Source: a virus (taxonomy: Duplodnaviria; Heunggongvirae; Uroviricota; Caudoviricetes). From it: a stretch of DNA of 4,830 nt. Below are positions 1,521 to 4,830 of this stretch, in pieces (the stretch's first letter is position 1; every line of letters starts with the position of its first letter). The DNA is taken from IMG/VR virus record IMGVR_UViG_3300029107_000017. The stretch is one strand, 5' to 3'. Below the pieces are notes generated by a model. That model searched no databases and was not told where the DNA came from. It saw only the letters and a list, made by a program, of their open reading frames with translations. The position numbers and the translations under genes are program-made.

Positions 1521-1748
1521 ATGTTGAAAATTGATGCTATAGCGTTTTTTGGCAGCAAAACAAAGCTTGCCAATGTCGCAGGAGTTAGGCTGGCAAGCGT
1601 TGCAGCATGGGGGGAACTGGTTCCTGAAGGTCGCGCGATGCGCCTGCAAGAGGCATCCGGCGGGGAACTTCAGTACGACCCCAAAGTTTATGACGAATAT
1701 CGTAAGGCAAAGCGGGTGGGGCGGTTGAACAATGAAAATCACCCCTGA
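1521..1748 (+). CDS. dicC: Cro/DicC-like small HTH regulator (75 aa)
   Basis: ORF track 1521..1748 (+). TAAGGAG SD with a 6-nt spacer before the ATG. HTH-like segment GSKTKLANVAGVRLASVAAW. Divergent from the DicA-like repressor, as dicC is in Qin. Confidence 0.8.
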   Translation: MLKIDAIAFFGSKTKLANVAGVRLASVAAWGELVPEGRAMRLQEASGGELQYDPKVYDEYRKAKRVGRLNNENHP

Positions 1749-2283
1749 ACAGGTTTGTGAGGCTCTAGATGCCTGGGTATGCCGACCAGGAATGACACAG
1801 GAGCAGGCGACGATATTAATCACGGAAGCATTCTGGGCTCTGAAAGAACGCCCGAACATCGATGTTCAACGCGTCACGTTTAATGATGGCGAGGTTGATC
1901 AACGGGCGCTGGGCGTTAACCGGGTGAAGATATTCGAACGCTGGAAAGCTATCGACACCAGGGATAAGCGGGAAAAATTCACGGCGCTGATTCCGGCAAT
2001 TATGGAGGCTATCCGGATCAGCGATTTCAGGTTGTATTGTGAAATTACTGACGGAAAAAGCATTACGTACATGATCGCCGGGTTAAACAAAGAATATGGC
2101 GATGTGGTGGAGTCCGGGCTGCTTTTTGCGGATCCATCTGTTGTGGAACGTGAGACTGACGAGCTTATAGAAAAAGCTATTGCTTTCAAGCATGCGTATC
2201 GTCAGCAATATCAATATTACTTTGCAGATAAACAAATGTCTGCCAGGGGTTCGTATGAGTATCGATGCACTACGATGGGCTAA
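1732..2283 (+). CDS. YdaT-family protein (183 aa), CII-like regulator or putative toxin
   Basis: ORF track 1732..2283 (+). Overlaps the Cro-like gene's 3' end by 17 nt. MKI... N-terminus and the segment KREKFTALIPAIMEAI resemble Rac YdaT (QREKIQKLIPAILAIL) as I recall it. Confidence 0.7.
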   Translation: MKITPEQVCEALDAWVCRPGMTQEQATILITEAFWALKERPNIDVQRVTFNDGEVDQRALGVNRVKIFERWKAIDTRDKREKFTALIPAIMEAIRISDFRLYCEITDGKSITYMIAGLNKEYGDVVESGLLFADPSVVERETDELIEKAIAFKHAYRQQYQYYFADKQMSARGSYEYRCTTMG

Positions 2284-3295
2284 AAAGGTGAAAACCGGCA
2301 GTTCATCCAGTAAGTCAGTATTGACCTGGCTTGCTGATATGTGCGGTGCCGATTTGTGTGCATACCCGTCTGTATCTGCACTGGCAGAAGTAACGGAACT
2401 GAACAAAAAGACTGTGCAGGACAGCTTACGATACCTGATGGAGATTGGGTTAATTGTTGATACCGGTGAGAGAAAAGGCCGAACAAAGCAAATCGTGGTG
2501 TACCGACTTATCGGTGTAGAAGAAAGCGTTGCCGAGCCTGAATACACCCAAAAACGGGAGTCTTTAAAGGTGAGTAAAATTGGTGCTGTTAATAAAAACA
2601 GTACCGAAAATGGTTATGTTTCAGCACAAAACAGACCCAAAAACGGAACTCTTAGCTGCATGGAAAATAACCAAAGACACCCAAATTTTCCATCAAAGAC
2701 ACCCAAAAACGGATCACGGAACCCAAAGGAATCCAAAGATCTAAACCCCACACATAACGCACGCGAGAGTGCTCCGACCAGTGAGCAGGAAGTTTTGTCG
2801 TTACAGGCAGCACCCCTTGTATTCCTGGATGGCCTGAGCGAACCCATCGGAAAATTTCCGATGACCGATAGCTGGTATCCGTCACGGGATTTTCGACGAC
2901 GGGCTGCGTTGTGGGGGATGGCTTTGCCGGAGACAGAATTTACACCTGCTGAACTTGCCGCCTTCCGGGACTACTGGGCAGCGGAGGGGAAAGTGTTTAC
3001 GCAGATTCAGTGGGAGCAGAAATTCGCCCGTCACGTAAATCACGTCAGGGCGCAGGTTAAACCAGTCAGCAAGGGGGTAAACCATGCAGCAGCACCAGGT
3101 GGCACCGCATCACGGGCAGTTCAGGAAATTCGGGCAGCACGTGAGCAGTGGGAACGTGAAAACGGATTTATCAGCGACGGAAACAGCCTGGAAGCTGTGG
3201 GAACTCATGGGGGAGGTTTATTCGAACCGCTGGACCCAGAAGAACGGGGCCGCACCTTCGAAGCTCTGGATTGCACAGATTGGTGCGATGACTGA
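2255..3295 (+). CDS. Replication initiation protein: N-terminal HTH domain fused to a DnaT-like C-terminal domain (O-like)
   Basis: Track ORF 2180..3295 begins at a TTG. The in-frame ATG at 2255 has AGGGG 5 nt upstream and is the likely start (346 aa). N-terminus matches phage HTH initiator proteins. Residues around GKFPMTDSWYPSRDFRRRAALWGMALPE...YWAAEGKVFTQIQWEQKFAR closely parallel the E. coli DnaT C-terminal region as I recall it. Confidence 0.8.
   Translation: MSIDALRWAKKVKTGSSSSKSVLTWLADMCGADLCAYPSVSALAEVTELNKKTVQDSLRYLMEIGLIVDTGERKGRTKQIVVYRLIGVEESVAEPEYTQKRESLKVSKIGAVNKNSTENGYVSAQNRPKNGTLSCMENNQRHPNFPSKTPKNGSRNPKESKDLNPTHNARESAPTSEQEVLSLQAAPLVFLDGLSEPIGKFPMTDSWYPSRDFRRRAALWGMALPETEFTPAELAAFRDYWAAEGKVFTQIQWEQKFARHVNHVRAQVKPVSKGVNHAAAPGGTASRAVQEIRAAREQWERENGFISDGNSLEAVGTHGGGLFEPLDPEERGRTFEALDCTDWCDD
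2544..2730. repeat. Phased ACCCAAA(AACGG) direct repeats inside the initiator gene; candidate origin iterons
   Basis: ACCCAAA at 2546, 2635, 2679, 2701, 2721; three copies extend to (A/G)ACCCAAAAACGG(A/G). Spacings 89, 44, 22, 20 bp are near multiples of two helical turns. AT-rich stretch at about 2562-2632. The repeats also encode a Pro/Lys/Asn-rich interdomain linker. Confidence 0.4.
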
Positions 3296-3749
3296 GCAGC
3301 AAATCCGACAGGTCTGCCGCCAGTGCATGGACCGCTGCCGGGCGGGTGAAACATGGCCTCCGGACCTGGCTGAGTTTGTGGCGCTGATTTCTGAAAGCGG
3401 AGCCAATCCATTCGGTCTGACGGTGGATGCCGTGATGGAGGAGTACCGTCGCTGGCGCAACGAGTCCTGGCGATACGACGGGAGCGATAAATACCCGTGG
3501 TCTCAGCCTGTGCTGTATCACATTTGCCTCGAGATGCGTTCAAAGGGGATTGAGCGGCAGATGACCGAAGGGGAGTTAAAACGGCTTGCAGAACGGCAGC
3601 TGACGAAATGGGCAAAGCATGTTAGTAACGGCCTGAGTGTTCCGCCTATCCGGCGACAACTGGCAGCACCCAAACGTCCTGCGGGACCAACGCCAATTGA
3701 GTTGCTGAAACAGGAATATGAACGCCGGAAAGCGGCTGGGTTTGTCTGA
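3084..3749 (+). CDS. Lambda P-like replication protein (helicase loader), 221 aa
   Basis: ORF track 3084..3749 (+). ATG at 3084 preceded by AGGGGG (3072-3077) with a 6-nt spacer. Central and C-terminal segments (WPPDLAEFVAL; YPWSQPVLYHICLEMRSKGIERQMTEGELKRLAERQL) parallel lambda P (FLPSPGQFVAWC; YPWKSNAHYWLVTNLYQNMRANALTDAELRRKAADEL) as I recall it. Confidence 0.8.
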   Translation: MQQHQVAPHHGQFRKFGQHVSSGNVKTDLSATETAWKLWELMGEVYSNRWTQKNGAAPSKLWIAQIGAMTEQQIRQVCRQCMDRCRAGETWPPDLAEFVALISESGANPFGLTVDAVMEEYRRWRNESWRYDGSDKYPWSQPVLYHICLEMRSKGIERQMTEGELKRLAERQLTKWAKHVSNGLSVPPIRRQLAAPKRPAGPTPIELLKQEYERRKAAGFV

Positions 3750-3781
3750 TTTGAGAAGTAATTTTTACCGGGAGGAAATTT

Positions 3782-4543
3782 ATGGAGACTGTTTTTGACG
3801 CACTGAAAGCGATGGGAAAAGCCACGTCGGTAGAGCTGGCTGCGCGACTTGATATCAGTCGTGAAGAAGTGCTGAACGAGCTGTGGGAACTGAAAAAGGC
3901 TGGCTTCGTTGATAAAAGCGTATACACCTGGCGTGTGGCTTATAACAACGTTCAGCAGGAACAGCCAGCGCCGGCAGAACTGTCGGAAGAAACCACCACG
4001 GCAACAGTCGCTAAAATTTCGGAGAGCGATTTAACTGCGACGATTGAACAACGTGGACCACAAACGGCGGATGAACTGGCTACGCTGTCCGGTACCACAT
4101 CCCGCAAAGTGGCTTCAACGCTGGCAATGGCAATCAGCAAAGGTCGTCTGATTCGTGTAAACCAGAACGGTAAATTTCGTTACTGCATACCGGGTGATAA
4201 TTTACCAGCCGAGCCGAAAGTTGAATCGGTAGCGGAAACCGATGGTAAAGCCTTTCCTCAGCCAGCAGGTGTTGCGTTACCAGTACAGGAAGTTGCAACA
4301 CAGGAATATATTAAAACAGAAACTGTGGCTGATATTGTGCAATCGTTGCCATCGTTTACTGAAACGCGAGCGGATGACCTGGTTTTACCATCGCTGCATA
4401 TGGCAAACCGCGAATTGCGTCGGGCGAAAAATCATGTCCAGAAGTGGGAGCGTGTCTGCGCCGCGCTGCGGGAACTGAACAAGCACCGGGATATTGTCCG
4501 ACAGATTGTCGATTCCTCCAGTCGTATTGTGTCGGAAAAGTGA
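3782..4543 (+). CDS. Prophage protein of unknown function with two winged-helix-like modules and a charged helical C-terminus (253 aa)
   Basis: ORF track 3782..4543 (+). GGGAGG (3770-3775) with a 6-nt spacer before the ATG. Residues about 4-51 and 84-135 share a G.T..EL....(S/T)R..V...L.....G pattern, suggesting an internal duplication. Confidence 0.8.
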
Positions 4544-4830
4544 TTGCCGGGGGCGCTTATGGCAAAAGTATTTACACAAGAAGAGCGGGAAAAATTAAGG
4601 GGCAGGTTGTTGAACTCGTGCGCCAGAGTGGGCGCGAGACGTTACGACAACTGGAAGCCAAGACAGGTGCGACAAGATATCTGATGAGCATTCTTGCCAG
4701 AGAGTTGGTTGCCAGTGGCGATGTATACAACTCTGGCTATGGGTTATTTCCCTCTGAACAGGCTCGTAAGGATTGGCAAAACGCCCGCAAAAAACTATCC
4801 AGGGCAAAGGTGAAAAAAACGGTTGTGGTT
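4540..4830 (+). CDS. Winged-helix-like protein paralogous to the upstream gene; partial (runs off the window), start ambiguous, possible frameshift
   Basis: The frame with codon starts at 4603, 4606... is open from 4378 to the window end and encodes ...[49 protein letters not shown].... The only start in that frame near the upstream stop is GTG 4540 (GTGA overlap, weak SD). A better-supported ATG at 4559 (GGGGG SD, N-terminus MAKVF like the paralog's METVF) is in another frame and stops at 4682-4684. Confidence 0.5.

What the first reader, a model, noticed from the sequence alone, without database searches (positions are those of the whole stretch)
3782..4830. Adjacent paralogous winged-helix-like genes of unknown function downstream of the replication genes
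The 253-aa protein carries two copies of a roughly 45-aa module and ends in a charged helical tail (residues about 196-253, ...[34 protein letters not shown]...). The next gene starts with a third copy of the module. I cannot assign a function from sequence. This position in lambdoid genomes often carries accessory, fitness or anti-defence genes.
Basis: partly seen in the sequence, partly recalled or inferred. Interest (0 to 1): 0.55.

Follow-up and report, generated by a model that had tools for sequence, protein, structure and literature searches.

The report
YdaW and Ren-like prophage genes

Summary
Bases 3782-4543 encode a 253-aa protein with two winged-helix (wHTH) domains at residues 1-52 and 80-135, two disordered linkers and a basic C-terminal helix at 205-252. 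The next gene begins with a third wHTH.

None of this is new. The 253-aa protein is a full-length Pfam DUF1627 / PHROG 630 member, named ydaW in phage Rac. The next gene is Pfam DUF977 / LygF and sits in the same PHROG as lambda Ren. Matches to the region occur in 4139 of 5426 complete E. coli genomes; 972 carry most of both genes together.

The three modules are related only at profile level (hhalign P between 1e-5 and 1e-9). Pairwise similarity is not significant, so they are not recent paralogues.

Family members carry one, two or three wHTH copies before the same C-terminal motif. WH1 is acidic; WH2 and the tail are basic.

YdaW is an optional cassette after replication or recE/recT genes. 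LygF takes lambda ren's position.

In this window LygF has lost one A from an A6 run, which breaks the ATG frame. A GTG that overlaps the ydaW stop keeps the frame open.

The most likely role is an accessory nucleic-acid-binding or counter-exclusion protein. This is inferred. Interest is low to moderate.

The parts
3770..3775 (+). Shine-Dalgarno sequence GGGAGG, 6 nt before the ATG of the ydaW-like gene
   Evidence: Read directly from the sequence.
3782..4543 (+). ydaW-family gene: 253 aa, Pfam DUF1627, PHROG 630
   Evidence: ORF. PF07789 at E 2.8e-96, 320 bits against a cutoff of 28.1. phrog_630 at E 1.1e-127 over residues 1-249. Annotated ydaW in phage Rac-SA53. dN/dS 0.35.
3782..3937 (+). 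WH1: winged helix 1 (residues 1-52), acidic
   Evidence: AF2 pLDDT 95-98 with H4-11, H16-23, H27-40, E43-46, E49-52. Sub-threshold TrmB/HTH_20/MarR hits. Net charge is negative in 84% of family members.
3938..4018 (+). Linker 1 (residues 53-79): variable and disordered
   Evidence: pLDDT 47-75. Length varies from 15 to 47 residues across the family. dN/dS 0.58.
4019..4186 (+). WH2: winged helix 2 (residues 80-135), basic; the likely nucleic-acid-binding module
   Evidence: AF2 pLDDT 91-97 with H81-91, H96-103, H107-119, E124-128, E131-135. Net charge is positive in 98% of the family: third helix +1.8, wing +3.4. Start of the Pfam DUF1627 model.
4187..4366 (+). Linker 2 (residues 136-195): acidic, Pro/Glu-rich and disordered. 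It ends in the conserved (I/L)PxFT motif.
   Evidence: pLDDT 53-68. Family mean charge -6.0. Alignment A2.
4367..4543 (+). Conserved basic C-terminal module (residues 196-253, helix 205-252) plus the stop codon. This is the invariant signature of the family.
   Evidence: AF2 helix H205-234/H236-252, pLDDT 90-96. Consensus R.DDL.IP....I..EIRRTK..L..LE..R.A.R...KH. It is present in variants with 1, 2 and 3 winged helices. No relative in the PDB.
4540..4830 (+). LygF / DUF977 / Ren-like gene, read from a GTG that overlaps the ydaW stop (GTGA). The frame is open to the window end. In identical contigs it continues to give 146 aa.
   Evidence: Translation. PF06163 at 36 bits against a cutoff of 22.1. 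phrog_142 at E 3.7e-21. A gene caller on the identical contig L097 calls 6759-7199, 146 aa.
4559..4684 (+). Canonical ATG start of LygF. In this window the frame is broken after about 12 codons and ends at TGA 4682-4684.
   Evidence: Translation. Intact relatives start [18 protein letters not shown].
4590..4594 (+). A5 run. The closest relatives (99.7% identical) have A6, so the difference is a single-base deletion.
   Evidence: Alignment with L098 and L099 and with JP538 and Rac-SA53. The same allele is in L096 and L097.
4591..4749 (+). Winged helix of LygF (the 'third module'): residues 12-64 of the intact protein
   Evidence: AF2 model of P0127: H7-24, H29-36, H40-53 and a hairpin, pLDDT 87-94. 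hhalign against WH2 gives probability 96%.
3288..3749 (+). Lambda-P-like replication gene directly upstream (context)
   Evidence: PF06992 at E 1.2e-16. A 153-aa CDS is called in the identical contig L096 and in JP538.
2255..3295 (+). O-like initiator with a DnaT domain (context)
   Evidence: PF17948 at E 7.3e-17. A 346-aa CDS is called in L096.

Best explanation
Shown. The region holds the last two genes of the early-right (pR) operon of a Rac-type lambdoid prophage of E. coli.

Gene 1 (3782-4543) is a full-length YdaW/DUF1627 protein. Its layout is an acidic winged helix (WH1), a linker, a basic winged helix (WH2), an acidic disordered spacer, and a conserved basic C-terminal helix.

Gene 2 (from 4540 or 4559) is LygF/DUF977. 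It resembles lambda Ren in sequence and occupies lambda ren's position. It has an N-terminal winged helix, a basic helix and the Ren C-terminal motif ECRxSxxMxRVLAxY.

YdaW is an optional cassette. It is inserted between the last replication or recombination gene and the Ren-like gene.

Inferred. Both are dispensable accessory proteins, made together with the replication proteins after induction.

YdaW most likely binds nucleic acid through WH2 and the basic tail. WH1 and the acidic spacer would contact a protein partner or mask the basic surfaces. The C-terminal helix probably drives oligomerisation.

Its role would not be replication itself. It would modulate or shield replication and recombination intermediates from host or prophage exclusion systems, as proposed for Ren against Rex.
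For: Identity. DUF1627 at E 2.8e-96 and phrog_630 at 1.1e-127. DUF977 and phrog_142 for gene 2. Annotated ydaW and lygF in phages Rac-SA53 and Rac. The window is 100% identical to E. coli contig GCA_022135225.1.

Link to Ren. Lambda Ren falls in phrog_142 at E 1.6e-41. BLASTP of LygF against Ren gives E 8e-7 on NIICSECRQSEVMQRVLAFY / NLVFKECRQSAAMKRVLAVY. In 43 of 83 LygF loci the gene lies directly after a replication initiator with no YdaW in between.

Architecture. AF2 models. Charge pattern conserved across 44 homologues. Family members carry 1, 2 or 3 winged helices before an invariant tail.

A functional gene. dN/dS is 0.25-0.37 in the folded parts.

Context of eight distant homologues. 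Five lie directly after replication modules of different types (O+P, initiator+DnaB, Phg_2220_C). Three lie directly after recE or recE-recT. Rac itself has the DnaC-like YdaV upstream.

Counter-defence lead. K-12 ydaW carries both winged helices, is 92% identical over residues 1-151 and lacks the tail. It was recovered as a blocker of the retron-Sen2 toxin RcaT (bioRxiv 10.1101/2020.06.22.160242). Lambda Ren interacted with Rex proteins in a two-hybrid assay and is described as likely involved in replication (bioRxiv 10.1101/2021.04.19.439022).
Against: No experiment addresses DNA binding, partners or phenotype for a full-length DUF1627 or DUF977 protein.

The retron result comes from an overexpression screen with a truncated protein and may be indirect.

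The fold matches are generic. No Foldseek hit reaches E 1e-3, and the best hits are tandem-winged-helix protein binders such as ScpB. DNA binding is therefore not established.

The Ren mechanism is itself unknown.

No PADLOC family specific to either protein matches: LygF has no hit, and YdaW has only weak hits of its first winged helix to HTH-bearing models. That library covers defence systems, not anti-defence proteins.

The frameshift allele of LygF in this very prophage shows the pair can be lost without obvious cost to a lysogen.
Confidence: 0.6

Rival explanations
1. YdaW is a conventional sequence-specific transcription factor. It would be a MarR/ArsR-like wHTH that dimerises through the C-terminal helix and regulates phage delayed-early (nin-region) genes or host genes.
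For: There are sub-threshold hits to TrmB, HTH_20, MarR, ArsR/SmtB and MntR. A survey of E. coli transcription factors of unknown function lists YdaW among them (PMC9308461). WH2 has a basic third helix and wing.
Against: All wHTH transcription-factor hits fall below the Pfam gathering scores. They fall on WH1, whose third helix is acidic in 80% of the family. No promoter-like site or inverted-repeat operator lies near the gene. The number of wHTH copies varies from 1 to 3, which is unusual for an operator-specific dimer. The flanking genes differ widely between homologues.
Confidence: 0.2
2. YdaW is a replication or recombination accessory factor that acts on the phage's own machinery. Examples would be tethering the initiator-loader complex to the origin or loading it. 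Under this reading it has no counter-defence role.
For: It lies immediately after replication genes in 5 of 8 distant contexts and after recE/recT in the other 3, often with overlapping or closely spaced start and stop codons. It lies in the same operon as the O-like and P-like genes here. The best fold hits are tandem-winged-helix adaptors such as ScpB.
Against: The upstream replication module differs in type between homologues: P-type loader, DnaB helicase, DnaC-like YdaV, Phg_2220_C. This argues against a specific phage partner. About half of the closely related prophages carry the same Ren-like gene directly after the initiator with no YdaW. YdaW is therefore not needed for replication.
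Confidence: 0.15
3. The genes are decaying prophage cargo with no current function.
For: LygF is frameshifted in this window. K-12 ydaW is truncated. Many truncated or chimeric ORFs exist in databases.
Against: Selection is purifying: dN/dS is 0.25-0.37 across 33 distinct alleles. The architecture is conserved down to about 25% identity. Matches are present in 4139 of 5426 E. coli genomes and in inducible phages. The rest of the frameshifted LygF ORF is intact and can still be read from an overlapping GTG.
Confidence: 0.05

Closest known systems
YdaW of the cryptic prophage Rac / Pfam DUF1627 (PF07789) / PHROG 630
   Same: Sequence family: 92% identity to K-12 YdaW over residues 1-151, and the full-length Pfam and PHROG models are matched. 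Same position after the replication genes. Same annotation in phage Rac-SA53.
   Different: K-12 YdaW is a truncated form (186 aa) that lacks the conserved C-terminal helix. The window protein is the intact 253-aa form. The Pfam model covers only WH2 to the tail (residues 88-242), so WH1 is not part of the curated domain.
Lambda Ren (PHROG 142 'Ren-like exclusion protein') and LygF / Pfam DUF977 (PF06163)
   Same: Gene 2 matches both models. It shares the N-terminal wHTH and the C-terminal ECRxSxxMxRVLAxY motif with Ren. Like ren, it follows the replication genes.
   Different: LygF is about 45 aa longer than Ren, with a basic helix and an extra segment between the wHTH and the C-terminal motif. 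The Rex-exclusion phenotype is known only for lambda ren (from general knowledge, not tested here). In this window the ATG frame is broken by a 1-nt deletion.
MarR/ArsR/TrmB-type winged-helix transcription regulators
   Same: The fold of each module (three helices and a beta hairpin). There are weak profile hits to WH1.
   Different: All scores are below the gathering thresholds. There is no dimerisation scaffold of the MarR or ArsR type. The third helix of WH1 is acidic. The modules are strung in tandem on disordered linkers.
Tandem winged-helix adaptor proteins (ScpB, ESCRT-II subunits, SelB C-terminus)
   Same: Two consecutive winged helices. These are the best Foldseek hits (ScpB 2z99 and 3w6j, E about 1e-3, probability 0.99).
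   Different: There is no sequence similarity (about 17% identity). In those proteins the two domains pack against each other, whereas here a disordered linker of about 27 residues separates them. Global TM scores are low (about 0.2-0.28). None of them has the C-terminal basic helix.

Membership tests
Pfam DUF1627 (PF07789) / YdaW | HMM score above the curated gathering threshold over the whole model | tested here: met
   320 bits against a cutoff of 28.1, E 2.8e-96, model positions 1-155 of 155 on residues 88-242.
Pfam DUF1627 (PF07789) / YdaW | Conserved C-terminal motif (I/L)PxFT...R.DDL.IP...EIRRTK..L..LE..R.A.R...KH | tested here: met
   Present at residues 190-235, [47 protein letters not shown]. 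It aligns with 43 homologues down to 19% identity.
PHROG 630 (full-length YdaW-like phage proteins) | End-to-end profile match | tested here: met
   E 1.1e-127, residues 1-249 on profile positions 1-252 of 253.
Pfam DUF977 (PF06163) / LygF | HMM score above the gathering threshold | tested here: met
   The window fragment scores 36 bits against a cutoff of 22.1 (E 8.8e-9). The intact JP538 orthologue scores 89.8 bits over model positions 1-131 of 134.
Pfam DUF977 (PF06163) / LygF | Intact reading frame from the canonical ATG | tested here: not met
   A single-A deletion (A5 against A6) at 4590-4594 ends the ATG frame at 4684. An alternative GTG at 4540 keeps a 146-aa ORF open in the identical contig L097. 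Whether that ORF is translated is unknown.
Lambda Ren family (PHROG 142) | Profile match, including the wHTH and the C-terminal ECRxS..M.RVLA.Y motif | tested here: met
   phrog_142 gives E 3.7e-21 for the window fragment, 5.7e-27 for the repaired N-terminus and 1.6e-41 for lambda Ren. The C-terminal motif lies beyond the window end. It is present in the identical contig L097 and matches Ren by BLASTP at E 8e-7.
Lambda Ren family (PHROG 142) | Gene immediately downstream of the replication genes in the pR operon | tested here: met
   It lies directly after a replication initiator in 43 of 83 loci, and after the inserted ydaW in 39 of 83, with constant spacing in nearly all. In lambda, ren follows P.
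Lambda Ren family (PHROG 142) | Confers resistance to Rex exclusion | not testable with these tools
   This needs plating of mutants on Rex+ lysogens.
MarR/ArsR/TrmB winged-helix transcription factors | Pfam score above the family gathering threshold | tested here: not met
   TrmB 24.5 against 25.6, HTH_20 22.0 against 27, MarR 15.7 against 24.6, NCBIfam ArsR/SmtB 22.3 against 55.
ScpB-type tandem winged-helix proteins | Significant structural superposition of both domains as one unit | tested here: not met
   Foldseek E 1.1e-3, TM 0.18-0.28, rmsd 11-16 Å over about 155 columns. The similarity is per domain only.

The most novel reading that the evidence does not exclude
YdaW and LygF could together form a modular 'Ren-type' counter-exclusion set. 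In this reading they are winged-helix proteins, co-expressed with the replication or recombination genes. They would coat or mimic the phage DNA-protein intermediates that trigger abortive-infection sensors such as Rex and retron toxin-antitoxin systems.

The variable number of wHTH copies and the acidic spacer would tune which sensor is blocked. This would give a function to two DUF families found in most E. coli genomes, and a mechanism for the ren phenotype.
Probability: 0.15. Interest if true: 0.6.

Novelty: already known. Interest (0 to 1): 0.25.

Why it matters
As a discovery it matters little. Both genes are exact or near-exact copies of catalogued prophage genes.

The useful residue is a sharper description of a very common protein of unknown function:
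- The Pfam DUF1627 model misses the N-terminal winged helix.
- The family is defined by its C-terminal helix, preceded by one to three winged helices.
- The two winged helices have opposite charge.
- The partner gene is a Ren homologue.

DUF1627/DUF977 matches occur in about three quarters of complete E. coli genomes. A truncated YdaW also scored as a retron-toxin blocker. A small set of experiments could therefore settle whether this is a widespread anti-exclusion module.

Tried and rejected
- Pairwise Smith-Waterman alignment of the modules against 2000 shuffles gave p 0.02-0.2. This is not significant, so recent duplication is rejected. No DNA-level repeat joins the modules.
- Sequence search of the PDB found nothing. 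This covered the whole YdaW protein, LygF and a profile of the C-terminal module. The best hit was MntR at E 0.2.
- Foldseek against the PDB returned only generic winged-helix hits for both models, none at E 1e-3 or better. The afdb50 library was not available.
- PADLOC defence models gave only weak hits to HTH-bearing models (CARF/Csa3/CasR and SWIM_XIII) for YdaW and none for LygF. NCBIfam has no specific family.
- Rfam found no RNA family in the window at E up to 0.1. No promoter-like or terminator-like site lies in 3600-4830. The two genes therefore appear to continue the pR transcript.
- The search for related loci with the 44-sequence alignment failed because no stretch was conserved enough.
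- A literature search for Ren was swamped by renin and geminivirus REn papers. Searches for ydaU, ydaV and racR found only work on the YdaS/YdaT toxins.
- The idea that the C-terminal helix is a further copy of the module was rejected: hhalign probability is below 1%.

Full report
**What the window is.** The 4830 bases are the immunity and replication region of a Rac-type lambdoid prophage.

| Coordinates | Strand | Gene |
|---|---|---|
| 1037-1444 | - | HTH_3 repressor |
| 1521-1748 | + | P22-Cro-like gene |
| 1732-2283 | + | YdaT-family gene |
| about 2255-3295 | + | O-like initiator with a DnaT domain |
| about 3288-3749 | + | lambda-P-like gene |

The window is 100% identical over its full length to a contig of E. 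coli assembly GCA_022135225.1 and to a metagenome scaffold.

**Checking the observation.**
- I ran AlphaFold2 on an alignment of 44 homologues with 19-71% identity. It gives two confident three-helix, two-strand domains at residues 1-52 and 80-135. It also gives two low-confidence linkers and a long C-terminal helix at 205-252, with mean pLDDT 81.6.
- The tail is basic, with net charge +5.
- The described anatomy is therefore real.

**Is the similarity between the modules more than chance?**
- Single sequences say no. Smith-Waterman scores are within 0.9-2.6 standard deviations of shuffles, and no DNA repeat joins the modules.
- Family profiles say yes. Module 1 against module 2 gives hhalign probability 95% and P 3.9e-8 over 53 columns. 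The C-terminal helix, used as a control, gives below 1%.
- These figures were not compared with unrelated winged-helix families, so they show membership of the same superfamily rather than a close relationship.

**The next gene.**
- In the frame of GTG 4540 the sequence reads ...[53 protein letters not shown]... to the window end.
- Intact relatives start at the ATG equivalent to 4559 ([18 protein letters not shown]...).
- The window has A5 at 4590-4594. Two prophages that are 99.7% identical have A6 there. The ATG frame therefore stops at 4684.
- The same allele is present in two independent assemblies. One gene caller dropped the gene. Another called a 146-aa ORF from the GTG that overlaps the ydaW stop codon (GTGA).
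- An AlphaFold2 model of a 98%-identical full-length relative shows an N-terminal winged helix (pLDDT about 90), then a basic helix at 67-83 and a poorly predicted C-terminus.
- The profile of this winged helix matches module 2 (probability 96%, P 2.7e-9) and module 1 (76%, P 2.2e-5).
- The 'third copy' is therefore real at fold and profile level.

**What the genes are.**
- Gene 1 is a full-length member of Pfam DUF1627 (E 2.8e-96) and PHROG 630 (E 1.1e-127). It is annotated ydaW in phages Rac-SA53 and Rac. It is 92% identical to K-12 YdaW over residues 1-151; the K-12 protein lacks the tail.
- Gene 2 is Pfam DUF977, also called LygF. It belongs to PHROG 142, 'Ren-like exclusion protein', the family that contains lambda Ren.
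- LygF and Ren share the C-terminal motif NIICSECRQSEVMQRVLAFY / NLVFKECRQSAAMKRVLAVY, with BLASTP E 8e-7.
- Matches to the region occur in 4139 of 5426 complete E. coli genomes. Most of both genes together occurs in 972.
- Neither family has a solved structure, and I found no functional study in the searchable literature.

**Family anatomy.**
- HMMER against 1.8 billion representative proteins found 183 relatives.
- The invariant part is the C-terminal module: (I/L)PxFT..R.DDL.IP...EIRRTK..L..LE..R.A.R...KH.
- That module is preceded by one winged helix (for example P0310, P0261, P0380), two (this protein) or three (P0367).
- In P0367 the third copy is a clear duplicate of module 2, with HMM E 1.8e-14. 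Module duplication has therefore happened in this family, but in another lineage.
- The charge pattern is conserved across the 44 aligned homologues:

| Part | Net charge across the family |
|---|---|
| WH1 | negative in 84% of members |
| WH2 | positive in 98% of members (third helix +1.8, wing +3.4) |
| Second linker | mean -6 |
| C-terminal helix | mean +6 |

- Pooled dN/dS is 0.25-0.37 in the folded parts and 0.58 in linker 1. This is pooled over pairs and is not corrected for phylogeny.

**Genomic context.**
- I examined 83 LygF loci: 80 from IMG/VR plus three annotated records.
- In 39 of them ydaW lies directly upstream, with the same 19-nt offset in nearly all.
- In 43 of them LygF directly follows a replication-initiator gene with no ydaW in between. 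One locus had too little upstream sequence to tell.
- YdaW is therefore an optional cassette, and LygF occupies the slot of lambda ren.
- For eight distant DUF1627 proteins, five lie directly after replication modules of different kinds: O+P, initiator+DnaB, Phg_2220_C and others.
- The other three lie directly after recE or recE-recT. In one of these a DUF977 gene is two genes away.
- The varied upstream partners argue against a dedicated phage partner. They favour DNA or a host factor as the target.

**Structure comparison.** Foldseek against the PDB gave no hit at E 1e-3 or better. The best hits are tandem-winged-helix adaptors (ScpB, ESCRT-II, SelB), followed by single ArsR/MarR/AspA-type winged helices. 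LygF gave only generic winged-helix hits. The fold assignment is secure, but it does not discriminate between functions.

**Functional leads from papers.**
- In a preprint on retron-Sen2, K-12 ydaW was among the prophage genes that blocked the RcaT toxin when expressed from a plasmid (10.1101/2020.06.22.160242). The K-12 protein is the two-winged-helix fragment.
- A preprint on lambda Rex describes ren as likely involved in replication. It reports two-hybrid interactions of Rex proteins with O and Ren (10.1101/2021.04.19.439022).
- DUF977 was noted as a winged-helix domain fused to some Fic proteins (PMC2686095).
- A survey lists YdaW among E. coli transcription factors of unknown function (PMC9308461).

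**Mechanism.**
- Shown: identity, architecture, purifying selection, optional-cassette status, and the position in the operon.
- Inferred: YdaW binds nucleic acid through WH2 and the basic tail. It uses the acidic WH1 and spacer for protein contact or self-masking, and it oligomerises through the C-terminal helix.
- Also inferred: it acts together with the Ren-like LygF as an accessory protein. The pair would modulate or shield replication and recombination intermediates, possibly against exclusion systems.
- Rivals: a conventional transcription factor (0.2), a replication or recombination accessory factor with no counter-defence role (0.15), and decaying cargo (0.05).

**Verdict.** The genes are ordinary and already catalogued, and only their function remains open. 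Novelty: already known. Interest: 0.25.

Noticed in passing
window 4540-4684, with the A5 run at 4590-4594: The LygF/DUF977 gene has lost one A from an A6 run, which breaks the ATG 4559 frame. A GTG at 4540 overlaps the ydaW stop (GTGA) and keeps a 146-aa ORF open. The same allele is in two independent assemblies (L096, L097), while 99.7%-identical prophages (L098, L099) are intact.
   Followed up: yes
window 2541-2719: About four direct repeats with the core ACACCCAAAAACGG lie inside the O-like initiator gene (families D1 and D6). They look like origin iterons, as in lambda O.
   Followed up: no
window 3084-3749 against 3288-3749: The longest ORF for the P-like gene (221 aa from ATG 3084) overlaps the O-like gene by about 210 nt. 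Gene callers on identical or near-identical contigs choose 140-180 aa starts: 153 aa in L096 and JP538, 140 aa in L097, 180 aa in L098 and L099.
   Followed up: partly
P0367 / L085:5001-5927: This DUF1627 variant has three winged helices, and the third is a duplicate of WH2. It again follows O-like and P-like genes. A 109-aa protein with a Pfam Rrf2 (HTH family) hit follows it; that protein belongs to PHROG 24072, not PHROG 142.
   Followed up: partly
L087:3550-4278, L089:5001-5756, L088:4298-5783: In some prophages the DUF1627 gene starts inside the end of recE, so the two ORFs overlap. In L088 the order is recE-recT-DUF977-ninX-DUF1627, so the two DUF families recur together in a recombination-module context.
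   Followed up: partly
L095:3253-3813 (E. coli K-12 ydaW): K-12 YdaW keeps both winged helices but lacks the conserved C-terminal helix. Published observations on 'ydaW' therefore concern a truncated protein.
   Followed up: yes
P0247 (339 aa) and P0256 (313 aa): These are chimeric ORFs. The N-terminus of a replication protein (replisome-organiser-like, or DUF1376/YdaU-like) is fused in frame to the C-terminal part of DUF1627. They are probably deletion derivatives in prophage remnants.
   Followed up: no
window 1732-2283: The 183-aa YdaT-family ORF is longer than the 140-151 aa of Rac-type YdaT proteins. Its start overlaps the cro-like gene and its end overlaps the O-like ORF.
   Followed up: no
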